A stretch of DNA of 38,591 nt, from assembly GCA_050010475.1 (NCBI GenBank), contig JBEKKY010000002.1:1-38591 (forward strand). Reading direction: 5' to 3'. Positions within the stretch are counted from its first letter, which is position 1. Every line of letters begins with the position of its first letter. Origin of the DNA: Acidobacteriota bacterium. Its GTDB lineage: Bacteria; Acidobacteriota; UBA6911. Position numbers and translations under genes: made by a program. Shown here piece after piece: positions 15,468 through 25,065 of the stretch. Below the pieces are notes generated by a model. The model made no database searches. It saw nothing but the letters and a program-made list of their open reading frames with translations, and had not been told where the DNA came from.

Positions 15468-15612
15468 ATCATAATCTCCTGGTTTGGCGCGAAGGGAATG
15501 CCCGAAGCCCTCCTCCACTGGCGTTTTTATATCACTAGCACTCATCAAAGACAATAAATGAATAAGACCGGATTATTGTAGTTTGGACCCTCTTTTGGTT
15601 ATCCTTCGTGCC

Positions 15613-16575
15613 ATGCTTATCCAAGAGATATCGCTTGAAAACATAGATTTTGAAGACGAACGATTCAGGATCAGCGAGGAGCTTGAATCCTCGCCGCTGA
15701 TGGATTCGCTGCGGGAAATCGGACAACTGAATCCGGTTCTTCTTCTTGAACGGGATTCGCGCAAGGTAATCGTCTGCGGATTTCGCCGGGTTCGTGCACT
15801 CGCACGGCTGGGCATGGCGCGAGCGCTGGCGCGAACTATTCCAGAAAAAAGTTGCGACCCGTCTCGAACCTTTGAGCTTGCCTTGCGGGATAACCTGTCT
15901 CACCGGCAACTGGATCCGCTTGAAAAGGCCAGAGTGCTGTTCAGTCTTCGAAACCACTTTGCCGTGCCGGATGAAAGGCTTGTTCAGGCTTACCTTCCGA
16001 TGTTGGGGTTGAATCCGCATGAGAACGTTTTGCGAAGTTATCTCCTCGTCCATACGATCCAACCTGCTCTGCGAAATTGCCTGAAAGACGGGCGGCTGAC
16101 GCTCTCAAGCATCGAGACTGTTGCCGAAATGCCGTATCCGGTGCAGGAAAGCATCTCCGCTTTGATGGGGAAAATTCGTCTGAGCGCCAGCCTTCAGAAA
16201 AAATTGCTGGGGCTGCTGGATGATCTTGCGGGAGCTGCAGGCAAGCCGCTGAGCGCGCCCCTCGAGAGCTCGGAAGTTTCGGAAATACTGAATGATTCGC
16301 GGCTGTCTCCCTTTCAGCGAGGCGAGAAGGTTTATGAGGTTTTGTATCGCCTCAGGTACCCGAGATTTTCAGCAGCCCTGGACCGGTTCGATGCTCAAAA
16401 GAAACTGCTTTGCCTGCCGGGTTCGATAAGGATCACAGCGCACCCTTTTTTTGAACAGCCGGGCTTGCACGTGGAATTCGATGCGCCCGATGTCGAGCGA
16501 TTTCGATATCTGGCAGCGGCGCTCCGGGAAGCCTCTCAATTACCGGAATCAGAAGAACTGTTTAACATAAAATAA
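15613..16575 (+). CDS. ParB/Srx N-terminal-domain protein with an unassigned helical C-terminal region
   Basis: LREIGQLNPVLLLE and the arginine box CGFRRVRALARLG (equivalent to ParB GERRxRA). The start is uncertain: ATG at 15613 or TTG at 15583. There is no adjacent parA. Confidence 0.7.
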   Translation: MLIQEISLENIDFEDERFRISEELESSPLMDSLREIGQLNPVLLLERDSRKVIVCGFRRVRALARLGMARALARTIPEKSCDPSRTFELALRDNLSHRQLDPLEKARVLFSLRNHFAVPDERLVQAYLPMLGLNPHENVLRSYLLVHTIQPALRNCLKDGRLTLSSIETVAEMPYPVQESISALMGKIRLSASLQKKLLGLLDDLAGAAGKPLSAPLESSEVSEILNDSRLSPFQRGEKVYEVLYRLRYPRFSAALDRFDAQKKLLCLPGSIRITAHPFFEQPGLHVEFDAPDVERFRYLAAALREASQLPESEELFNIK

Positions 16576-16589
16576 ATCAGTGCAACTCA

Positions 16590-16645
16590 CCTGGGAGCGC
16601 GGCCGCCTCGGCCGCTTTGCGGGCGGGAACGGCCGCGCTCCCAGG
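16590..16645. repeat. Perfect 16-bp inverted repeat (CCTGGGAGCGCGGCCG) between the ParB-like and SPL-like genes; a variant of the GGGAGC-hairpin family
   Basis: 16590-16605 is the exact reverse complement of 16630-16645. The left unit contains the inner hairpin gcggccg-cct-cggccgc, the same architecture as the 11781 and 28118 units. Confidence 0.7.
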
Positions 16646-16658
16646 AAGAAATTCAAAC

Positions 16659-17753
16659 ATGATTTCATATCGCCCAAAACGAATTCTTATCCAGGAGCAA
16701 TCCTGGAACGACAGTGCCACTCATGAAATCCTGGAGAAGCTGCCCGGCATAGAAATCCAAACCATTTCCGATCTGCCGGGTGGCAATCCGGGCTCTTCCG
16801 AAAAATCCACACTGATCCTGATGAGGTATCCCGGCAAGTTTCTGAAAAAATGCCAGGGTTCCGGAGCTGAGGTCTGCTGCAATTATTTTGTCGTAAGCTA
16901 TGCCTGGAATTGCCACCTCGGGTGCACGTACTGTGTCCTGCAATCCTATTTGAATACTGAAGCCCTGATCGTTTGCACCAACATCGACGAATTGATTTTT
17001 GATGTGAAGAATGCGCTGAAGCAGTCGCCGGACCGAATGTTCAGGATTGGAACCGGTGAATTGGCCGACTCCCTCGCATTGGACCACCTCACGCATTATT
17101 CGGAACGCCTGGTCACTCTTTTTGCCTCTCTCCCAAACGGAATTCTTGAACTCAAAACCAAGTCGGATCAAATTTCCAATCTCGAAGGTTTGGATCATGG
17201 TGGGCGCACGGTGATTTCCTGGTCTCTGAATTCAAAGCGCATCTGTCGCACCGAGGAACACAAAGCGGCCGCATTCGAAGAGCGGTTGGCCGCGGCCGCC
17301 CAATGTGAAAAATGGGGCTATAGACTGGGTTTCCATTTTGATCCTCTCATTTACCATGAGGGGTGGGAGGATGAGTACCAGGAGGCTATCAAGGAGATTT
17401 TTCGCGCCGTCGATCCAAGGTCCATTGCCTGGATTAGCCTGGGGGCTCTTCGTTTTCCTCCCCATTTGCGGGAGCTGGTGCGCAAACGGTTTCCCGAATC
17501 CAAAGCGCCTTATGGGGAATTTGTTCCGGGACATCATGGTAAGACGCGCTACTTCAGACCGATCCGGGAAGAGATGTATCGCAGACTGCATTCTTGGATC
17601 CATGCAGCTGCTCCCGAGGTATTTGTCTATCTTTGCATGGAGACTCGCTTTGTCTGGGAGCAAAGCTTGGGGAAAAAGGCCTGCGACAGTTTTTGGCTTT
17701 CCGATCAACTGGATTCCCGTGTTTTATCGGCTCCGCCGAAATGGGATCGGTAG
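16659..17753 (+). CDS. SPL-family (spore photoproduct lyase-like) radical SAM protein
   Basis: CX3CX2C cluster in NCHLGCTYCVLQSY, plus the SplB-like blocks FRIGTGELADSLALD, LELKTKS, VISWSLN, GFHFDPLI and WISLGALRFPP. The ATG at 16659 is preferred because the 16617 start reads through the hairpin. Confidence 0.8.
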   Translation: MISYRPKRILIQEQSWNDSATHEILEKLPGIEIQTISDLPGGNPGSSEKSTLILMRYPGKFLKKCQGSGAEVCCNYFVVSYAWNCHLGCTYCVLQSYLNTEALIVCTNIDELIFDVKNALKQSPDRMFRIGTGELADSLALDHLTHYSERLVTLFASLPNGILELKTKSDQISNLEGLDHGGRTVISWSLNSKRICRTEEHKAAAFEERLAAAAQCEKWGYRLGFHFDPLIYHEGWEDEYQEAIKEIFRAVDPRSIAWISLGALRFPPHLRELVRKRFPESKAPYGEFVPGHHGKTRYFRPIREEMYRRLHSWIHAAAPEVFVYLCMETRFVWEQSLGKKACDSFWLSDQLDSRVLSAPPKWDR

Positions 17754-17923: not shown

Positions 17924-19069
17924 ATGTCTACAGCGGAAAATGTCTACACAAATTCTCCTTTCGGTGCGGCCTTCCGTCCAGCCAAAATCCTAATTATCGA
18001 CGATGAGGTCGTAATTCGGGAAATCCTTGCGCGCAAGCTATCGAACCTTGGCTACAGCTGCGAATGCTGCGCCAGCGGTCAAAAGGCAATCGACTTGCTG
18101 GCGACGGGGGAATTTGACCTTGCCGTGGCGGACATCCTGATGCCTGAAATCGGGGGTGTGGCGCTATTAAAAGAGGCAATGAGAGTCTCGCCCGGAATTG
18201 CCGTCATTCTTGTGACCTCGGTTGTAGATATCGAAGTGGCTGTTGATGCATTGAAAGAAGGAGCCTACGACTATATAACGAAACCATTCAGCCTCGAGCA
18301 GGTATCGATCAGTGTCTGCCGGGCGCTTGAAAAGCGCCGGCTATTGGTCGAAAACCAGAATTGCCAGCGCACTCTGGAAGAGCAGGTTGCAAGCCGTACG
18401 CGACAGTTAAAGGAAGCGCTTGGGGTGCTCGAGCATACCTACCATTCAACTCTTGTTGCTTTGAGCAAGGCGCTCGACAGCCGCGATGCCGATTCCGACG
18501 GCCATTCTTTGCGTGTGACCGTTTATACCAAGCGGCTTGCCCAAGGCTTGAACTTAAGCGAGTCGGAGATCCGAACCATCGAACAAGGGGTGCTGCTGCA
18601 CGATATCGGTAAAATAGGAATACCCGATGAGTTGCTTCAGAAACCAGAAGATCTGGTCGGGCGGGAATGGCTTCTGATGCGCCAGCACCCCGAAATAGGC
18701 TATCGCATTCTTTCCAGCATCAAATTTTTAACCGGAGCGGCTCAGGTGGTGCTTCATCATCATGAGCGTTTCGATGGGAACGGATATCCTCAGGGGTTGC
18801 AGGGAAACCAGATCCATTTAGGCGCCAGGATCTTTGCCGTCGCCGATGCGCTTGATGATCTCACCTCCAATCGCAGGTACCAGCCTTCTGTCGGTTTCGA
18901 ATCTGCGGTCCGCGAGATAAAAATAATGTCGGGGAAGCAACTCGATCCTGATATCGTCAGCGAGTTCCTGAAAGTTCCTGCCTCTGCATGGAAAGCGATG
19001 CGGCGGGAAATTGCGGCAAAAACGAAACGGTCCGATTTCCTCTTTTTGGGACGCCGATCGGCCGAATAG
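17924..19069 (+). CDS. Response regulator with an HD-GYP output domain (c-di-GMP phosphodiesterase type)
   Basis: Receiver domain (ILIIDDE, DLAVADILMPEIGG, ITKPF) followed by HDIGKIGIPDELL and HHERFDGNGYPQGL. Confidence 0.85.
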   Translation: MSTAENVYTNSPFGAAFRPAKILIIDDEVVIREILARKLSNLGYSCECCASGQKAIDLLATGEFDLAVADILMPEIGGVALLKEAMRVSPGIAVILVTSVVDIEVAVDALKEGAYDYITKPFSLEQVSISVCRALEKRRLLVENQNCQRTLEEQVASRTRQLKEALGVLEHTYHSTLVALSKALDSRDADSDGHSLRVTVYTKRLAQGLNLSESEIRTIEQGVLLHDIGKIGIPDELLQKPEDLVGREWLLMRQHPEIGYRILSSIKFLTGAAQVVLHHHERFDGNGYPQGLQGNQIHLGARIFAVADALDDLTSNRRYQPSVGFESAVREIKIMSGKQLDPDIVSEFLKVPASAWKAMRREIAAKTKRSDFLFLGRRSAE

Positions 19070-19473
19070 CGGCCGATTCCCGTTTGCAGAAAAAAGTCTG
19101 TCGGATGTCTTCACAGCTGCCCGGAATTTCTTTCGGGCTTTTCCACGAAATAAAAAAGAGCGTCAGCCCCGATCCCTCGAGGCAAAGGATGCTCGGCGAA
19201 ATAAAAGGCAAAGCAGATTGCCAAGAACACTGCAGCAATAGTCAATAGAATGCCGAACATCGGTACTATCCAATCCGCATTTTTGGGGAAGCCGCATTAT
19301 AATCGTGCAGGAATACCTGCCGCAACCTCTATACGAAATTTGATCTAAGTCCCTGTCTTTTTGGCACGGAGCCGCGGAGAACGATTGCAGGCGGGGACGC
19401 AGAAACGACGGAGTTTCTCCGCGCTTCCGCAGCTCTGCGTGCGTTATAATTCAATGACACCAAATGGAGAAAT

Positions 19474-22041
19474 ATGGACGGCAACCTCACGATATTTCAA
19501 AATGAAGAATTCAAGGTAAAGGATCCGGTTTGCGGCATGCAATTCGCTCGAGAGCAGGCGGCCGGGGCACTGGAATATCAGGGGCAAACTTTTTATTTCT
19601 GCAACCAATCCTGTCTCGAAAGGTTCAGATCAGATCCGGCCAGATATCTGGCGCGCGATTCTCAAGTAAAGGATCCGGTTTGCGGTATGCAATTCGCTCC
19701 AGAAAAAGCGGCCGGGACGCTGGATTACCAGGGGCAAACCTACTATTTCTGCAACAAGTCGTGTTTCGAAAAGTTTCGCTCCGATCCCGCAAGGTATCTG
19801 GACTCTACAAAGACGATATCTTCCTCTCGACCGCAAAGTGGCTACACTTGTCCAATGGACCCGGAGGTGCGTCAGAGCGCTCCGGGAGCCTGCCCGAAGT
19901 GTGGAATGGCCCTCGAGCCTCTCATGCCTGCGGCCGAATCCGGAATGGAATATGTCTGCCCCATGCATCCGGAAATAGTGCAGAGCACTCCAAGTGCTTG
20001 TCCGAAGTGCGGAATGGCTCTCGAATCCCGATTTGCCGGAACACAAGAACAGGAGAATCCTGAGCTTGCCGTAATGATGCGCAGGTTTTGGATCAGCCTC
20101 ATCCTGACTCTGCCAATTCTCCTGATCGCAATGGGAGAAATGCTTTCGAGTTCCCAGTTTAAACTGGGCGTTTGGCTTCAACTTGTATTGGCCACTCCCG
20201 TTGTTTTGTGGGGCGGATGGCCCTTTTTTCAGCGGGGTTGGGTTTCCGTGGTCAACCGGAGCCTGAATATGTTCACGCTCATCGCTGTGGGCACCGGCAC
20301 GGCCTACGCATACAGCGTGTTTGCCACGCTATTCTCAAGGTTTTTGCCCCAATCTTTTCGCGGGCGCCATGGATCTCCCGAGGTCTATTTTGAAGCGTCT
20401 GCGGCAATCATAACCCTTGTCCTGCTTGGCCAAGTGCTTGAGCTCCGGGCCCGCAACCAAACGAGCAGCGCAATTCGAGCAATGCTCGGGCTTGTCCCGA
20501 AAACAGCCCGTGTTGTTGAAGAGAGGGGACTGGAACGAGACGTCCCGTTGGATCAGGTTGAACCGGGAAATCGGTTGCGCGTCCGACCGGGCGAAAAGAT
20601 CCCGGTAGACGGAACGATTCTCAAAGGGGAGAGTTCGGTCGACGAGTCCATGATAACGGGCGAGCCGATCCCGGTGGAAAAATCAAAGGGGAGCTCTGTC
20701 CGTGCGGGAACTCTAAACGGAAACGGAAGCTTCGTCATGCGCGCCGACAAAGTCGGAGGCGACACGCTGCTAGCCCAGATAGTCCGGATGGTCGGTGAGG
20801 CTCAACGAAGCCGCGCCCCGATTCAGCGCGTGGCAGACAAGGTGTCTTCCTGGTTTGTGCCTGTGGTTGTCTTCATCGCCATCATCACATTTGTGATCTG
20901 GGCATTTGCCGGCCCCGAGCCAAGAATGGCGTATGCATTGATCAACGCTGTCTCTGTTCTCATCATCGCATGTCCATGTGCTCTGGGGCTGGCAACCCCA
21001 ATGTCCATCATGGTGGGCATGGGGCGCGGTGCGGAGGAAGGCGTGTTGATCAAGAATGCTGAAGCGCTCGAATTGCTGGAGAAGGTTGACACGCTGGTCA
21101 TCGATAAAACCGGAACGCTCACGGAAGGAAAACCGCAACTCGTTTCCGTAATCGCCGCCGGCGGTCGCAGCGAAAACGAACTGTTGCGCTTTTGCGCCAG
21201 CCTGGAGCGGGCAAGCGAGCACGCTCTGTCCACCACCATCGTTACCGCTGCCCTCGGGCGAGGATTGCAGTTCAGCGGAGTGAGCGAATTTAATTCCATC
21301 ACCGGCAAAGGCATCCTGGGCTCCGTCGACGGACATTCCGTTGCGATCGGCAACAAAGGGCTTCTGGAGCAACTCGCAGTTGATCCCGGCGCCTATGCAC
21401 AAACAGCGGAAAACCTGCGCCGGAAGGGACAGACCGTAGTTTTCGTGCTGATCGACAAAATTCCTGCGGGCCTGTTGTCTGTTTCGGACCCGATCAAGGA
21501 GTCCGCTTACGAAGCTATTCAGGAACTCCATAAAGAGGGAATTCGCATCGTCATGATGACCGGAGATAATAGATCCACTGCAGAAGTGGTCGCGAGTCAA
21601 TTGGGAATCGACGAAATCGAGGCGGAAGTTTCGCCAGGCAGGAAAGGTGAGTTGCTCAAGGAACTGCAATCCCAGGGCAGGATCGTAGCGATGGCGGGAG
21701 ACGGAATCAACGATGCGCCTGCCCTGGCCCGGGCACATGTTGGAATCGCAATGGGAACCGGGACGGATGTGGCGATCCAGAGTGCCGCGGTTATTCTGGT
21801 GAAAGGGGATTTGCGTGGGGTTGTTCGTGCAAGAAAGCTCAGCCGGCGCACAATGCGAAATATCCGGCAGAACCTGTTTTTCGCATTTCTTTACAATATG
21901 CTCGGATTGCCCATTGCCGGAGGCGCGCTGTATCCGGTTTTTGGATTGCTCCTGAATCCCATGATTGCCAGCGCCGCCATGACCTTCAGCTCTATTTCCG
22001 TTATCAGCAATGCTCTCCGTCTCCGCAACATCGACCTATAA
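19474..22041 (+). CDS. copA: Copper/silver-type P1B heavy-metal-translocating ATPase with four N-terminal Cys-rich modules
   Basis: CPC motif [12 protein letters not shown], phosphorylation site DKTGTLT, and hinge [10 protein letters not shown]. The N-terminus has two YHS/TRASH-like modules ([10 protein letters not shown]...YFCN.SC) and two CPM(D/H)PEV...CPKCGMALE modules. Confidence 0.9.
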
Positions 22042-22048
22042 GTGTTTC

Positions 22049-22113
22049 TTTGAGTCTTTGGGTCTTCGAGTCTTTGAGTTGAACGCGAAGACTCGAAGGC
22101 TCAAAGACTCGAA
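22049..22113. terminator. Octamer-repeat hairpin exactly filling the gap between the convergent copA and dtxR-like stops; bidirectional terminator candidate
   Basis: 22049-22074 pairs with 22088-22113 (about 26 bp, 3 mismatches or wobbles) around a 13-nt loop. The arms are tandem TTTGAGTC-like units. Confidence 0.7.
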
Positions 22114-22782
22114 TTATTCTTTTGGCGTCTGCCAGACATAGATGTTGCGCGCGACGTCCGGTTCGAGAGCTATTTCTGTTTCCTCGCATTGCACGACATA
22201 GGCCGGCCATTTCTGAATCAACTTCAGTGGTATTCCGGGAGAAATGCCGAGGGCCGACAGCTTCAGCAGTCTCGAATGTTCTCGCGTACAGAAATAGGCA
22301 ACACTTGCCGACTCCCCTATCCTCAGTTGATCGCAAGACACTACGATAGGCCTCAGTTCGTCGCGCGCTTGCCGGCAACAGTCCCCCTCGGGGATCGGCT
22401 TGTTGTGAGGACAGTAGCGCGGATGGCCCAGGAGCGTGCAGATGGAATTGGTGATTCCCTCCGCAAGTACATGTTCGTATTCGCAGGCCGCGTCCTCGCT
22501 CTCATCGGCCTCGGCGCCCAGCACATCACAGATCAGCCTCTCGGCCAGGCGATGGCGGCGAATGATCTGTTCCGCCAGTTCACGCCCTTTGGGGAGCAGG
22601 CGGATGTGCTTCTCCTCATCAATGGTAATAAGCCCCTCATCACAGAGAATCGAAATGAGTCCCTCGGTCACTTTAATGGGCGCATTTTGGATTACCTTTT
22701 CGACCGTGGCCGGTTCCTGCTCCTCCAAGGTCCATACCGCTTCGAGCACCTCTGTTATTTCTTCCGATGTTCTATTTTCCAT
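22114..22782 (-). CDS. DtxR/MntR-family metal-dependent transcriptional regulator with a C-terminal FeoA/SH3-like domain
   Basis: wHTH N-terminus, the dimerisation/metal block RRHRLAERLICDVLG...YEHVLAEG, and a C-terminal FeoA-like segment. It lies 18 nt downstream of feoB on the same strand. Confidence 0.8.
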   Translation of the reverse strand: MENRTSEEITEVLEAVWTLEEQEPATVEKVIQNAPIKVTEGLISILCDEGLITIDEEKHIRLLPKGRELAEQIIRRHRLAERLICDVLGAEADESEDAACEYEHVLAEGITNSICTLLGHPRYCPHNKPIPEGDCCRQARDELRPIVVSCDQLRIGESASVAYFCTREHSRLLKLSALGISPGIPLKLIQKWPAYVVQCEETEIALEPDVARNIYVWQTPKE

Positions 22783-22800
22783 TGAGCATCCCCGACGGAT

Positions 22801-25065
22801 TTAATAAAACTGAATATTGAATGTGCGCAGGATCCAGCTAAGAGCGGCTCCTACTAAAATCGCAAAGGGCACAATAAAGCCCGTGATCGCCAGCGCCCGC
22901 TTCAATCCCTGCTCTTTAATAATCACAAGAAAGCTGGCCAGGCAGGGTACAAACAATGTGATCACAACCAGGCTGACGACCACTTGCTGCCCGTTCAAAA
23001 GACCTTTTCTCGCAAGATCGTAAAGGCCTGCCGCGCCGTAATCGCGGCGCAGGAACCCGAGCAGGAAAATTCCGGCTGCATCTCTCGGCAAATGCAATAA
23101 GCCGGAAAGCAGCGGCGCCATCGCAGCCTGAACCCAGCCGAGCAGGCTGCGTCCATCCACATGGACAGCATCCAACACGAAAAGAGCCAGCGTCCCCACG
23201 AGGAAAAGAGGAACCGCTTCCTTCAAATACCATTGAACGCGATACCACGTCTTCAATGCGACGTTCTTGAATTGAGGGATGCGGATAGGCGGAATTTCGA
23301 AAATAAATTCGCTGGGCTTGCCACGGATGAGCTTTGAGGAAAGAAAGCCGACCAGCAGGAGCTGAGACGCAACCACTGCAAGAACGGTCAGTATGGCCCT
23401 TTGTGAAAAGGCGGCCGCGATGCCCATCATCACCCCAAGTTGGGCCGAACAGGGGATCCCCAATGCCAGAAGCAGAATGGTGATGAGCCGCTCCCTTTTT
23501 GAACTGAGAATCCGGGTGGACATGGTGGCCATCGTGCCGCAGCCAAAACCAAGGACCATCGGGAGAACGGCTTTTCCATTCAGTCCCATAATCCGCATGA
23601 GGCGGTCCGAGAGAATCGAAAGCCTGGGCAAATACCCGCTGTCTTCGAGCAGACCAAAGGCGATGAAGAAAGTCCCCACGACCGGCATCACGATGCCGAT
23701 GGCATAAGTCAATCCCATGGACACTAGTCCGTATTTACCTGCGATCAGCTCCGCGAAGAAGCCGGAAGGAAGCAGCCTGCGCAGCAAAGGAACGAAGTAT
23801 TCACCGAACAGCACCTTTTCTATCAGTCCCACAAGCGTCTGCGCGCCCGTATAGCCGACGAACTCGTAAAGCATCACCAGGACTCCGAGGAGTATCGGAA
23901 TCCCGGTCGAGGCTCGCCGCGTCATGATCCCCAACTCGTGAACGAAGGCCCGGCTGCGCGACAACAGCATCCCAAGCGGAATGATTACGGGCGCAATCAG
24001 AAGCAGAAAATGAATCGTCTCCGGTACAAGTCCATATTCAAAGCGTCCGGAGGAGTTTTTGCCCAGCAATATGCTGCGAAGCAATCCCGCACCAGGGTAC
24101 CCTGTGCCCAATGACCCATCCAGCCAGTTCACGACCGTGTGTAGGATCACCGTAAAAGGAGTCCTGATCCGCAAAAGGCCTCCGATTTCATTCCAGACAA
24201 ACAAGAGCAATCCACAGACCAACAATCCGAGCCAGATCCTTTTGCTTGCGCTGGATTCCTCGACGAAACGGCTTACCCGTTTTTTCTTGAACAGTGGGAC
24301 CGACCGGTCGAGCAGTCTGTTTCTGATCTCGGCTATTTCCTTGGCGGGACTTGTGTGGCTGGAAGTGCGGTATCTCTCCTGCCATTCTCTCAATTGCGTG
24401 ATAGCCTGTTCGCCGCGGGCCGAAGCGAGGGCGCGCACGAGCTCGCGATCTCCTTCGGCCAGCCATTCAATCGACAACAGCGCGGGAGCAGACAGGCCAT
24501 GAAGCGATTGGATTGTTTTCGCTTCCCCAGGATTGCCCTGCAGAGGATTCCGGGGCGTCTTTGGATTTTGAATCGCATTTAAAAGCTGTCTTCGGCCCCT
24601 GGAATAGATAGCCACAGTCTCCACGACAGGAATGCGAAAGAAATCCGAAAGAGCCTGGGAATCAATCTCAATTCCACGCTCTTCCGCTTCGTCGATCATG
24701 TTCAAAACCAGCACCATCGGAATTCCGAATTCCACCAGTTGGGAGGCGATCAGAAGAGTGCGGCGCATGTTTTTGGCGTCAGCGACCTGAATGATCAAAT
24801 CCGGATTCTCGCGCAGCAGAATTTCACAGGCTACCCGCTCGTCCTCGGATTGGGGAACAAGGCTATTAACTCCCGGGGTATCAATTACTTCATAACCAAC
24901 TTCCCCAAGCTGCATATGTCCGCGAGATACTTCGACGGTGGTTCCGGGAAAGTTCGAGACAACGACGTAACTGCCGGTTAACAGCCTGAAGATAACTGAC
25001 TTGCCAACATTGGGATTTCCTACCAGAATAACTTTTTTTGAATCAGGTAGAGTTGGGGTCCCCAT
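22801..25065 (-). CDS. feoB: Ferrous iron transporter FeoB
   Basis: N-terminal G domain (VILVGNPNVGKSVIF, DTPG) followed by a large polytopic membrane domain; 754 aa. Confidence 0.9.
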   Translation of the reverse strand: MGTPTLPDSKKVILVGNPNVGKSVIFRLLTGSYVVVSNFPGTTVEVSRGHMQLGEVGYEVIDTPGVNSLVPQSEDERVACEILLRENPDLIIQVADAKNMRRTLLIASQLVEFGIPMVLVLNMIDEAEERGIEIDSQALSDFFRIPVVETVAIYSRGRRQLLNAIQNPKTPRNPLQGNPGEAKTIQSLHGLSAPALLSIEWLAEGDRELVRALASARGEQAITQLREWQERYRTSSHTSPAKEIAEIRNRLLDRSVPLFKKKRVSRFVEESSASKRIWLGLLVCGLLLFVWNEIGGLLRIRTPFTVILHTVVNWLDGSLGTGYPGAGLLRSILLGKNSSGRFEYGLVPETIHFLLLIAPVIIPLGMLLSRSRAFVHELGIMTRRASTGIPILLGVLVMLYEFVGYTGAQTLVGLIEKVLFGEYFVPLLRRLLPSGFFAELIAGKYGLVSMGLTYAIGIVMPVVGTFFIAFGLLEDSGYLPRLSILSDRLMRIMGLNGKAVLPMVLGFGCGTMATMSTRILSSKRERLITILLLALGIPCSAQLGVMMGIAAAFSQRAILTVLAVVASQLLLVGFLSSKLIRGKPSEFIFEIPPIRIPQFKNVALKTWYRVQWYLKEAVPLFLVGTLALFVLDAVHVDGRSLLGWVQAAMAPLLSGLLHLPRDAAGIFLLGFLRRDYGAAGLYDLARKGLLNGQQVVVSLVVITLFVPCLASFLVIIKEQGLKRALAITGFIVPFAILVGAALSWILRTFNIQFY

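What the first reader, a model, noticed from the sequence alone, without database searches (positions are those of the whole stretch)
15583..17753. ParB-like protein paired with a spore-photoproduct-lyase-family radical SAM enzyme: candidate uncharacterised DNA repair/modification module
Seen: two same-strand genes lie 83 nt apart. Gene 1 has a ParB/Srx N-terminal domain with an intact arginine box (CGFRRVRALARLG) and about 200 further helical residues I cannot assign. Gene 2 has the radical SAM CX3CX2C cluster (CHLGCTYC) and the conserved SplB-like blocks (FRIGTGELADSLALD, LELKTKS, GFHFDPLI, WISLGALRFPP). Established: SplB repairs the spore-specific 5-thyminyl-5,6-dihydrothymine lesion in endospore formers. 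ParB-fold proteins are CTP-dependent DNA clamps or nucleases, and as DndB/DpdB-type proteins they are accessory subunits of DNA-modification systems. Nothing here suggests sporulation, there is no parA, and I saw no parS-like palindrome, so neither textbook role fits. Inference: a DNA-binding or sliding partner may deliver a radical SAM DNA lyase or modifying enzyme to its substrate, for UV or desiccation lesion repair, or for DNA base modification. An HD-GYP response regulator follows on the same strand 170 nt later but may be unrelated.
Basis: partly seen in the sequence, partly recalled or inferred. Interest (0 to 1): 0.7.

Follow-up and report, generated by a model that had tools for sequence, protein, structure and literature searches.

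The report
ParB-like protein paired with SPL-like enzyme
A DNA-clamp-like (ParB-fold) protein and a relative of the spore DNA-repair enzyme SPL form a conserved, sometimes fused, gene pair in several phyla of non-sporulating bacteria (named records: Acidobacteriota, Thermodesulfobacteriota, Elusimicrobia), and I found no description of it in the searchable literature.

Summary
Window 15613-16575 encodes a ParB-fold protein and 16659-17753 encodes an SPL-family radical SAM enzyme.

The pairing is not a local accident:
- All 23 Acidobacteriota genome loci found with the ParB-like protein carry the SPL-like gene directly downstream.
- 52 of 56 metagenome loci found with the SPL-like protein, each with at least 1 kb of upstream sequence, carry the ParB-like gene directly upstream. 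The two genes often overlap by 4 nt.
- The pair sits in at least five unrelated flanking contexts.
- One protein (P0430) fuses the two. About 20 of the 150 best family representatives carry a roughly 70-residue helical module of the ParB-like C-terminal region fused to the enzyme.

The enzyme is not an orthodox SplB. It keeps the SAM cluster and a Clostridium-type hydrogen-donor cysteine. It replaces Cys141 with Glu, does not conserve Tyr99, and has its own signature: CC, HFD, LCME and a shortened hairpin.

The ParB-like protein keeps the nucleotide-binding GxRR and Asn but lacks both CTP-hydrolysis residues. No parA, parS, phage, plasmid or defence link was found.

Best reading: a dedicated partner tethers a radical SAM nucleic-acid lyase. 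The substrate is unknown.

The parts
15524..15562 (+). Two conserved upstream blocks (TTTTTATATCACTAGCA and AAAGACAATAAATGAA). Candidate promoter of the pair, lying in the divergent spacer to the TPR gene.
   Evidence: TATATCA is present in 24 of 36 distinct Acidobacteriota-type upstream regions. No shared palindrome was found. The promoter reading is inference; the consensus scan did not call it.
15613..16575 (+). ParB-like gene (320 aa; the ORF opens at TTG 15583).
15613..15882 (+). ParB/Srx N-terminal nucleotide-binding-type domain (residues 1-90). Includes box II CGFRR at 15775-15789.
   Evidence: The profile matches ParB/Spo0J/Noc chains and Foldseek matches CDP/CTPgS-bound ParB. G37, G56 and R59 are invariant in 81 sequences. 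The catalytic Glu of GERR is F/W/Y throughout the family.
15883..16167 (+). Helical middle domain aligned to the ParB helix-turn-helix region (residues 91-185). Begins with the box III equivalent DNLSHR...LEKA.
   Evidence: The alignment to 4umk Spo0J extends to residue 185. N94, R98 and E104 are invariant. This part is also kept in the truncated 154-aa partner of L128.
16168..16377 (+). Enzyme-associated helical module (residues ~186-255: RLSASLQKK ... LYRLRYPRFS). This piece is found fused to the SPL-like enzyme in other lineages.
   Evidence: A profile of the C-terminal region (residues 186-320) hits, with its first ~70 positions, the N-terminal extensions of 21 of the 150 best family representatives. 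hhalign aligns residues 197-263 (330-aa numbering) to P0452 residues 16-82, E 3.4e-5. No Pfam family matches.
16378..16572 (+). Small C-terminal alpha/beta domain (residues 256-320: PGSIRI..PFFE..). Function unknown; a dimerisation role is only a guess.
   Evidence: The model shows strands 282-286 and 295-299 and helix 304-318 in 330-aa numbering. P249 and the PFFE motif are conserved.
16590..16645 (+). Perfect 16-nt inverted repeat forming a strong hairpin in the 83-nt spacer. It abuts the Shine-Dalgarno of the SPL-like gene and is lineage-specific.
   Evidence: -55.5 kcal/mol, z -7.3. The outer arms are kept in L009. It is absent from Rfam. Most other loci have no spacer.
16659..17753 (+). 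SPL-family radical SAM gene (364 aa; the ORF opens at TTG 16617).
16851..16880 (+). Cys65 (Clostridium-type H-donor position) and the clade-specific Cys73-Cys74 insertion.
   Evidence: C65 aligns with the Cys of C. botulinum SplB QSCKPSAH. This is the Ser76/Cys77 position described in PMC3467042. In 150 representatives C65 is kept in 143, C74 in 145 and C73 in 112.
16911..16934 (+). Radical SAM cluster motif CHLGCTYC (Cys85, 89, 92; Tyr91 = SplB Tyr97), followed by Val93 in place of SplB Tyr99.
17058..17060 (+). Glu134 in GTGELAD, at the position of SplB Cys141.
   Evidence: It is E in 145 of 150 representatives.
17334..17342 (+). His226-Phe-Asp228 (GFHFDP) where SplB has Ile-Val-Ala.
   Evidence: H is kept in 150/150 and D in 149/150.
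17634..17642 (+). Cys326-Met-Glu328 (YLCME). It opens a ~40-residue C-terminal extension that SplB lacks.
   Evidence: C326 and E328 are each kept in 148/150.

Best explanation
The two genes encode a dedicated two-protein system that is co-transcribed and often translationally coupled.

The ParB-like protein has four parts:
- a ParB-type nucleotide-binding N-domain;
- a ParB-type helical, HTH-like domain;
- a family-specific helical module of about 70 residues;
- a small C-terminal domain.

I propose that the helical module docks onto the SPL-like enzyme, and that the ParB-type part holds the complex on nucleic acid, most likely DNA. The nucleotide would act as a binding or dimerisation switch rather than as fuel, because both residues needed for CTP hydrolysis in ParB are replaced.

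The enzyme would use its [4Fe-4S]/SAM site to make a 5'-deoxyadenosyl radical. That radical abstracts a hydrogen from a damaged or linked base, a carbon-carbon bond is cleaved, and Cys65 returns a hydrogen, as in clostridial SPL. The remodelled pocket (Glu134, His226, Asp228, Cys74, Cys326, Glu328, shorter hairpin) implies a substrate other than, or broader than, the classical spore photoproduct.

Shown: the genetic coupling, the fusions, the folds and the residue patterns.

Inferred: the physical docking, the DNA tethering, the nucleotide switch, the lyase chemistry and the substrate.
For: Coupling:
- 23 of 23 Acidobacteriota genome loci have the SPL-like gene directly after the ParB-like gene.
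- 52 of 56 SPL-like metagenome loci with at least 1 kb upstream have the ParB-like gene directly upstream on the same strand. The median gap is 43 nt and 36 of 96 gaps are 12 nt or less, including 4-nt overlaps.
- The pair recurs in different contexts. Acidobacteriota: TPR / pair / response regulator. Desulfobacterales: purC / pair / SNase / EF-G. A third group: GT2 / pair. L124: IspG-NadE / pair / ExbBD. L127: epimerase / pair / FHA.

Fusions:
- P0430 (705 aa) is ParB-like N part (E 5.6e-26) plus C part (E 5.9e-15) plus SPL-like.
- 21 of the 150 best representatives show an N-terminal match to the first ~70 positions of the ParB-like C-terminal region.
- L128 has a 154-aa partner that consists only of ParB-like positions 118-234.

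Folds:
- ParB-like model versus CTP/CDP-bound ParB, Noc and KorB.
- SPL-like model versus SPL at TM 0.73-0.79; the next best hit is only E 4.5e-6.

Residues:
- GxRR, Asn94, Arg98 and Glu104 are invariant in the ParB-like family.
- Phe aligns with M. xanthus Glu93 and Asn with Gln52.
- The cluster cysteines, Tyr91 and Cys65 at the clostridial donor position are kept.

Weak hints of a nucleic-acid context: an SNase gene overlaps or follows the SPL-like gene in Desulfobacterales; an HhH-GPD gene lies nearby in L127; RecC and HU genes lie near L030.

PNP_UDP_1 (the nucleosidase/phosphorylase superfamily) is fused to module plus enzyme in Elusimicrobia. This would fit stoichiometric 5'-deoxyadenosine production.
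Against: - No biochemical or genetic data exist, and nothing tested here shows DNA binding, nucleotide binding or protein-protein contact.
- The ParB N-domain is absent in the fused and truncated forms, so it is not essential to the enzyme's reaction.
- About 7% of SPL-like loci lack an adjacent partner (L058, L061, L068, L106; also L030). Two of the four Desulfobacterales genome loci carry the ParB-like gene without the enzyme within ~6 kb.
- No palindromic loading site was found near the operon.
- Flanking genes such as purC, nadE, GT2 and an epimerase would equally fit nucleotide or sugar-nucleotide chemistry.
- The full fusion P0430 rests on a single contig.
Confidence: 0.4

Rival explanations
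1. The ParB-like protein is only a transcriptional regulator of the enzyme gene. It would be an analogue of SplA in the Bacillus splAB operon, or of KorB or DndB, and would have no physical role in catalysis.
For: The regulator-first, enzyme-second order matches splA-splB. The protein has the ParB HTH-like domain. DndB, a ParB-superfamily protein, is reported as a regulator (PMC10853773).
Against: Fusions of the ParB-like protein, or just its C-terminal module, to the enzyme are not expected for a pure repressor. Translational coupling by 4-nt overlaps argues for stoichiometric partners. No shared palindromic operator was found upstream. There is no homology to SplA (hhalign probability 1.4%).
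Confidence: 0.12
2. The pair writes a nucleic-acid modification instead of repairing damage. The radical SAM enzyme would install or rearrange a base modification, and the ParB-like protein would be an accessory subunit like DndB or DpdB.
For: ParB-fold accessory subunits are known in DNA modification systems (PMC10853773). The active site is remodelled relative to SplB.
Against: There is no restriction or other defence partner and no PADLOC hit. There are no phage or plasmid copies. The chromosomal context looks stable and housekeeping-like, with vertical-looking inheritance at 38-82% identity within Acidobacteriota. The enzyme retains the SPL lyase-type H-donor cysteine.
Confidence: 0.15
3. 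The substrate is not a polymer. The ParB/Srx domain would act as an NTP-dependent enzyme, as in sulfiredoxin or serine kinase SerK, and the SPL-like enzyme would do radical chemistry on a nucleoside, nucleotide or sugar-nucleotide metabolite.
For: Srx, SerK and SbnI appear among the weaker fold matches. Flanking genes are often nucleotide-using enzymes: purC, nadE, GT2, an epimerase and an ATP-grasp protein. A PNP_UDP_1 nucleosidase-type domain is fused in Elusimicrobia.
Against: The best fold and sequence matches include the DNA-binding HTH region of ParB, not only the Srx core. The enzyme matches the DNA-repair enzyme SPL over its full length, far better than any other radical SAM enzyme. 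The flanking genes differ between lineages, so none is a consistent third partner.
Confidence: 0.15
4. It is an ordinary spore-photoproduct lyase repairing UV damage in non-sporulating bacteria, and the partner is of minor importance.
For: Pfam SPL membership, the SPL fold, a clostridial-type donor Cys and the kept Tyr97 equivalent.
Against: It scores 110 bits against the 400-bit equivalog cutoff of TIGR04070. [quoted passage not shown] The hairpin carrying Arg304/Tyr305 is six residues shorter. The invariant H226, D228, C326 and E328 are absent from SplB. The named carriers are Acidobacteriota, Thermodesulfobacteriota and Elusimicrobia MAGs, not known endospore formers.
Confidence: 0.1
5. The adjacency is chance or inherited synteny without functional meaning.
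For: Within Acidobacteriota the whole region is syntenic (TPR, pair, response regulator, Cu-ATPase, Fe repressor, FeoB).
Against: The pair is the only element common to at least five different contexts and several phyla, and it occurs as fusions.
Confidence: 0.02

Closest known systems
Spore photoproduct lyase SplB of Bacillus and Clostridium (radical SAM; structures 4FHC-4FHG and 4RH0), encoded in the splAB operon
   Same: [quoted passage not shown] It shares the CX3CX2C cluster and the Tyr97 equivalent. A cysteine sits at the clostridial H-donor position, Ser76 in G. thermodenitrificans numbering. It is the second gene of a two-gene operon.
   Different: Only 22-28% identity. It lies far below the SplB equivalog cutoff. 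Cys141 is Glu and Tyr99 is not conserved. It adds a CC insertion, the HFD and LCME signatures and a ~40-aa C-terminal extension, and its hairpin is shorter by 6 residues. The hosts are not known endospore formers. The upstream partner is a 320-aa ParB-like protein rather than the 79-aa SplA, to which it shows no homology.
CTP-dependent ParB-family DNA clamps (chromosomal ParB/Spo0J, Noc, KorB) and the CTP-binding ParB-like protein PadC
   Same: The N-domain plus HTH-type fold. GxRR, the box III Asn and the PxE(E/K)A motif are conserved.
   Different: The residues aligned with M. xanthus ParB Gln52 and Glu93 (mutated in PDB entries 7bnr and 7o0n) are Asn/Gln and Phe/Trp/Tyr. There is no parA and no canonical parS. 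The C-terminal 130 residues differ and include an enzyme-associated module. The partner is a radical SAM enzyme, which has not been reported for any ParB, as far as my searches show.
ParB-superfamily accessory proteins of DNA modification systems (DndB and, from my own knowledge, DpdB and IbrB)
   Same: A ParB-fold protein encoded next to an enzyme that acts on, or is thought to act on, DNA.
   Different: There is no defence-island context, no PADLOC match and no mobile-element copies. The neighbouring enzyme belongs to a different family.

Membership tests
Radical SAM superfamily | CX3CX2C motif ligating a [4Fe-4S] cluster in a partial TIM barrel | tested here: met
   CHLGCTYC at residues 85-92. 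C89 and C92 are kept in 150/150 representatives and C85 in 147. The model matches radical SAM structures.
SPL family (Pfam PF20903) | Score above the Pfam gathering threshold | tested here: met
   101.7 bits against 27.
True spore photoproduct lyase SplB (NCBIfam TIGR04070 equivalog) | Score above the equivalog cutoff | tested here: not met
   110.3 bits against 400. TIGR03886 (lyase_spl_fam) also fails, at 55.9 against 437.55.
True spore photoproduct lyase SplB | Hydrogen-donor cysteine (Cys141 in Bacillus, or Cys77 in Clostridium) | tested here: inconclusive
   The Cys141 position is Glu in 145/150. Cys65 aligns with the clostridial cysteine (PMC3467042).
True spore photoproduct lyase SplB | [quoted passage not shown] | tested here: not met
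   Val in the window. Across the 150 representatives it is I 68, F 41, Y 25 and V 12.
True spore photoproduct lyase SplB | Long beta-hairpin with Arg304/Tyr305 at the tip for lesion flipping | tested here: inconclusive
   The region is 6 residues shorter and poorly modelled (pLDDT < 50 at residues 281-294), but GK.RYF is conserved.
True spore photoproduct lyase SplB | Occurrence in endospore formers, with splA upstream | tested here: not met
   The hosts are Acidobacteriota, Thermodesulfobacteriota and Elusimicrobia MAGs. The partner is not homologous to SplA.
True spore photoproduct lyase SplB | Repair of 5-thyminyl-5,6-dihydrothymine in DNA | not testable with these tools
   Needs an enzyme assay.
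ParB/Srx superfamily | ParB N-domain fold with the GxxRxxA (box II) motif | tested here: met
   G56 and R59 are invariant and R58 is kept in at least 90% of sequences. The single sequence is below the Pfam threshold, but many homologues carry PF02195.
CTPase ParB clamps (ParB, Noc, KorB) | Residues for CTP hydrolysis (the Gln of box I and the Glu of GERR) | tested here: not met
   Asn40 and Phe57 in the window. The position is aromatic throughout the family.
CTPase ParB clamps (ParB, Noc, KorB) | CTP binding and DNA clamping | not testable with these tools
   Needs binding and cross-linking assays.
ParABS partition system | Adjacent parA and parS sites | tested here: not met
   The window has no ParA-like gene and no canonical parS. 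A ParA-like gene occurs in 1 of 128 loci, L119. The probe was a single ParA-like sequence.
Anti-phage defence or DNA-modification islands (Dnd, Dpd and similar) | Match to known defence protein models, or a mobile or variable context | tested here: not met
   PADLOC gave 0 hits. There are no viral or plasmid homologues of the ParB-like protein.

The most novel reading that the evidence does not exclude
The ParB-like protein is a nucleotide-gated DNA clamp that loads on the chromosome and carries a radical SAM lyase along it. The lyase would find and directly reverse carbon-carbon cross-link lesions, for example methylene-bridged or cyclo-type damage that forms when oxygen is absent. This would be the first enzyme-carrying ParB clamp and a new direct-reversal DNA repair pathway outside endospores.
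Probability: 0.2. Interest if true: 0.85.

Novelty: new variant of a known kind. Interest (0 to 1): 0.66.

Why it matters
SPL is the textbook example of radical SAM DNA repair and is thought of as a spore speciality. This work shows a large sister clade in non-sporulating bacteria. A profile search found 940 clusters at 50% identity with E <= 1e-30; that count is an upper bound which may include other SPL subfamilies. The clade has its own active-site signature and a dedicated partner.

ParB-fold proteins are currently being recognised as CTP switches with roles beyond partition. A ParB relative whose C-terminal module is repeatedly fused to an enzyme would be a new use of that switch.

The pair gives a concrete, testable entry point into two questions:
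- What do radical SAM enzymes of the SPL family do outside spores?
- Can a ParB-type protein target an enzyme to DNA?

Tried and rejected
- **Defence system.** No PADLOC hits. PHROGs returned only generic ParB-like families.
- **Phage or plasmid origin.** No relatives of either protein in viral contigs. No plasmid match for the ParB-like protein. Plasmid matches of the enzyme are true Bacillus or Clostridium splB at 22-28% identity.
- **Known RNA element in the spacer or window.** None in Rfam.
- **Canonical parS.** None within 3 mismatches.
- **Shared palindromic operator upstream.** None.
- **Homology of the partner to SplA.** None.
- **Pfam assignment of the C-terminal 145 residues.** Only a sub-threshold RHH_1 hit at E 0.03.
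- **Link to the downstream response-regulator/HD-GYP gene.** Not conserved.
- **Auxiliary [4Fe-4S] cluster.** I first suspected one from five extra invariant cysteines in 99 close sequences. Wider sampling showed that C73 (112/150) and C216 (62/150) are not conserved, and that C65 is explained as the clostridial donor position. The idea is weakened. It could not be tested geometrically because model coordinates are not returned.
- **Net charge or pI as a DNA-binding hint.** Uninformative.
- **Literature.** Seven targeted searches found no description of the pair. The library lacks most subscription-journal papers, so this is not proof of novelty.
Full report
**1. The observation**

Gene 1 opens at TTG 15583. 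Twenty-five homologues align from the ATG at 15613, giving 320 aa ending at 16575. On its own it misses every Pfam threshold and reaches only 32.7 bits on TIGR00180, whose cutoff is 58.45. The family evidence is much stronger:
- A profile of the family matches H. pylori Spo0J (4umk) at E 3e-11 over residues 31-185. It also matches M. xanthus ParB, Noc and B. subtilis Spo0J.
- An AlphaFold model (pLDDT 89.2) matches CDP/CTPgS-bound ParB, Noc and KorB over about 200 residues.
- The last ~130 residues match nothing.

Gene 2 most likely starts at ATG 16659 (364 aa), which gives the 83-nt gap. It is a Pfam SPL member at 101.7 bits against a gathering score of 27. Its model (pLDDT 84) matches the G. 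thermodenitrificans SPL structures at TM 0.73-0.79, E 4e-23. The next best structure is at E 4.5e-6.

The response-regulator/HD-GYP gene follows 170 nt later.

**2. Is the pairing more than chance?**

*Searching with the ParB-like family.* A scan of one genome per species returned 28 loci. Twenty-three are Acidobacteriota, and all 23 have the SPL-like gene directly downstream on the same strand. The window's closest relative is an Acidobacteriota MAG (L009; 82% and 88% identity).

Four more distant relatives are in Desulfobacterales-type MAGs. Each follows purC.
- In L023 the enzyme gene is adjacent.
- In L028 it lies 3.2 kb downstream, behind two inserted genes.
- In L024 and L026 it is absent from the ~6 kb available.

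*Searching with the enzyme.* A metagenome scan returned 80 loci.
- Of the 56 with at least 1 kb upstream, 52 have the ParB-like gene directly upstream on the same strand.
- Of the 24 shorter ones, 12 show its 3' end.
- The four clear exceptions (L058, L061, L068, L106) carry unrelated genes upstream.
- Across 96 pairs the median gap is 43 nt. Thirty-six gaps are 12 nt or less, many of them 4-nt overlaps.

*Flanking contexts.* The neighbours differ between lineages:
- Acidobacteriota: TPR(-) / pair / response regulator / Cu-ATPase / Fe repressor / FeoB (the same as in the window).
- Desulfobacterales: purC / pair / SNase / EF-G.
- A low-GC group whose members are named Deltaproteobacteria or Thermodesulfobacteriota: GT2 glycosyltransferase / pair.
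- L124: IspG, NadE / pair / ExbD-ExbB.
- L127: epimerase / pair / FHA.

The pair is the only constant element.

**3. Fusions**

A profile search of 1.84 billion cluster representatives found 940 relatives of the enzyme at E <= 1e-30. Among the best 150:
- P0430 (705 aa) is a full ParB-like protein followed by the enzyme. The N part scores E 5.6e-26 and the C part E 5.9e-15; BLASTP against the window protein gives 4e-14. It is known from one contig only. There it sits between a GT2 gene and a ParA/MinD-like gene.
- Twenty-one proteins, mostly 430-490 aa, carry an N-terminal extension. It matches the first ~70 positions of the ParB-like C-terminal region, which is window residues ~186-255 (RLSASLQKK...LYRLRYPRFS). 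hhalign confirms the match for P0452.
- Two of these, P0468 and P0474, add a PNP_UDP_1 domain in front. A member of the P0474 cluster is named as Elusimicrobia and was seen on more than 20 contigs.
- In L128 the upstream gene encodes only ParB-like positions 118-234 and overlaps the enzyme gene by 4 nt.

The constant partner element is therefore the helical part. The ParB N-domain is usual but dispensable.

**4. The enzyme**

Against B. velezensis and C. botulinum SplB the clade keeps three features:
- the cluster motif;
- the Tyr97 equivalent;
- a cysteine (Cys65) that aligns exactly with the clostridial cysteine.

The SPL structure paper places that clostridial position (Ser76 in G. thermodenitrificans numbering) 4.2 A from the substrate and proposes it as the alternative hydrogen donor (PMC3467042).

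The clade differs from SplB as follows:
- Glu replaces Cys141 (145/150).
- Tyr99 is not conserved (I 68, F 41, Y 25, V 12).
- An insertion carries Cys73-Cys74.
- His226 and Asp228 replace Ile and Ala.
- The hairpin region that carries Arg304/Tyr305 in SPL is six residues shorter.
- A ~40-residue C-terminal extension opens with invariant Cys326-Met-Glu328.

It scores 110 bits against the 400-bit cutoff of the SplB equivalog model.

I conclude that it is an SPL-family paralogue. It probably performs SPL-like radical lyase chemistry, but on a different or broader substrate. This conclusion is inference.

**5. The partner**

Across 81 sequences Gly37, Gly56, Arg59, Asn94, Arg98 and Glu104 are invariant. 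These correspond to box I Gly, GxRR, the box III Asn and PxE(E/K)A.

The Glu of GERR is aromatic in every group. It aligns with the position mutated in the M. xanthus E93A structure 7o0n. The box I Gln, mutated in the Q52A structure 7bnr, is Asn in the Acidobacteriota group and Gln in the low-GC group.

From established knowledge of ParB CTPases (my own knowledge), this pattern predicts nucleotide binding without efficient hydrolysis. It was not tested here.

**6. What it is not**

- No PADLOC hit.
- No viral or plasmid copies.
- No ParA-like gene in 127 of 128 loci, nor in the window.
- No canonical parS and no shared upstream palindrome.
- No homology to SplA.
- No paper describing the pair in the searchable library.

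**7. Mechanism and rivals**

The best-supported model is a stoichiometric complex. The partner's helical module binds the enzyme, and the ParB-type part anchors it on nucleic acid under the control of a bound nucleotide. The enzyme reverses a carbon-carbon-linked base lesion.

I give the complete model a confidence of 0.4. The statement that the two genes are functionally coupled I would put near 0.9.

The rivals, scored in the structured fields, are:
- a pure regulator;
- a modification writer;
- small-molecule chemistry;
- an orthodox SP lyase.

The PNP_UDP_1 fusions and the unconserved Tyr99 suggest that SAM is consumed rather than regenerated. This is a speculative point.

**8. Limits**

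- Taxonomy comes from record titles and a few source names. Most metagenome loci are unassigned.
- Gene starts in the loci were set from profile alignments.
- Genome-level co-occurrence could not be measured, so loci without an adjacent partner may still have one elsewhere in the genome.

**9. Verdict**

This is a real, conserved two-gene module that I did not find described in the searchable literature. Both parts belong to known families, so I rate it a new variant of a known kind. Interest: 0.66.

Noticed in passing
window 16590-16645: A perfect 16-nt inverted repeat (CCTGGGAGCGCGGCCG / CGGCCGCGCTCCCAGG, 24 nt apart) lies between the two genes. The RNA fold is -55.5 kcal/mol, z -7.3. It has no U tract and abuts the AGGAAG ribosome-binding site of the enzyme gene. 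The outer arms are kept in the closest relative (L009 7008-7196) around a ~170-nt insert. It is not in Rfam and not repeated elsewhere in the window. It could tune translation of the enzyme relative to the partner.
   Followed up: partly
window 15524-15562: Two sequence blocks upstream of the ParB-like gene are conserved across Acidobacteriota loci: TTTTATATCAAAAGCA and ACAA(T/C)AAATGAA. They read like a TTTATA-N18-TACAAT promoter in the divergent spacer. The TPR gene's real start is probably the ATG at 15470, where a signal peptide begins, not the TTG at 15554.
   Followed up: partly
P0468, P0474 and P0551; L120 and L121 5001-7007: In an Elusimicrobia-named cluster and a related one, the enzyme is a three-part protein: a PNP_UDP_1 (nucleosidase/phosphorylase superfamily) domain, the ParB-like helical module, and the SPL-like domain. 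No ParB N-domain gene is nearby. The nucleosidase-type domain might remove 5'-deoxyadenosine.
   Followed up: partly
L123 619-2490 (Fusobacterium vincentii record NZ_CP084075.1): An unannotated 623-aa ORF whose N-terminal half resembles the PNP_UDP-type domains above by eye (not run against Pfam), joined to a more distant SPL-family domain that lacks the CC, HFD and LCME signature. If confirmed, the nucleosidase-SPL fusion theme would recur in another SPL subfamily, in a named Fusobacterium species.
   Followed up: no
L119 2899-7081: The single full ParB-like::SPL-like fusion (P0430) is preceded by a GT2 glycosyltransferase, as in the low-GC group. It is followed by a ParA/MinD-type ATPase carrying an N-terminal HTH_17, the only ParA-like gene seen in 128 loci.
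   Followed up: no
L101 3960-4793, L108 4053-4886, L112 4018-4959 and similar loci: In the low-GC Thermodesulfobacteriota-type group a 277-313-aa GT2 glycosyltransferase sits directly upstream of the ParB-like gene. In L108 and L112 it overlaps that gene by 4 nt, so it may be a lineage-specific third member of the operon.
   Followed up: partly
L028 8431-9147; L035 8071-8703; L036 2980-3612: A staphylococcal-nuclease homologue lies next to the SPL-like gene in Desulfobacterales loci. In L028 it has a weak Ada zinc-binding match and overlaps the enzyme gene by 16 nt. This is a weak hint of a nucleic-acid context.
   Followed up: no
L128 1094-1558: A 154-aa partner gene overlaps the enzyme gene by 4 nt. 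It corresponds only to ParB-like positions 118-234 and has no nucleotide-binding N-domain.
   Followed up: partly
window 17924-25065: The genes after the pair keep the same order in distant Acidobacteriota (L032-L034): response regulator/HD-GYP, a YHS-domain Cu-type P-type ATPase (19474-22041, with two YHS repeats at its N-terminus), an Fe-dependent repressor (22114-22782, - strand) and FeoB (22801-25065, - strand). The window's names for the genes beyond 19069 are inferred from that shared order, not from a search of the window proteins. This looks like a metal-homeostasis block, probably unrelated to the pair.
   Followed up: no
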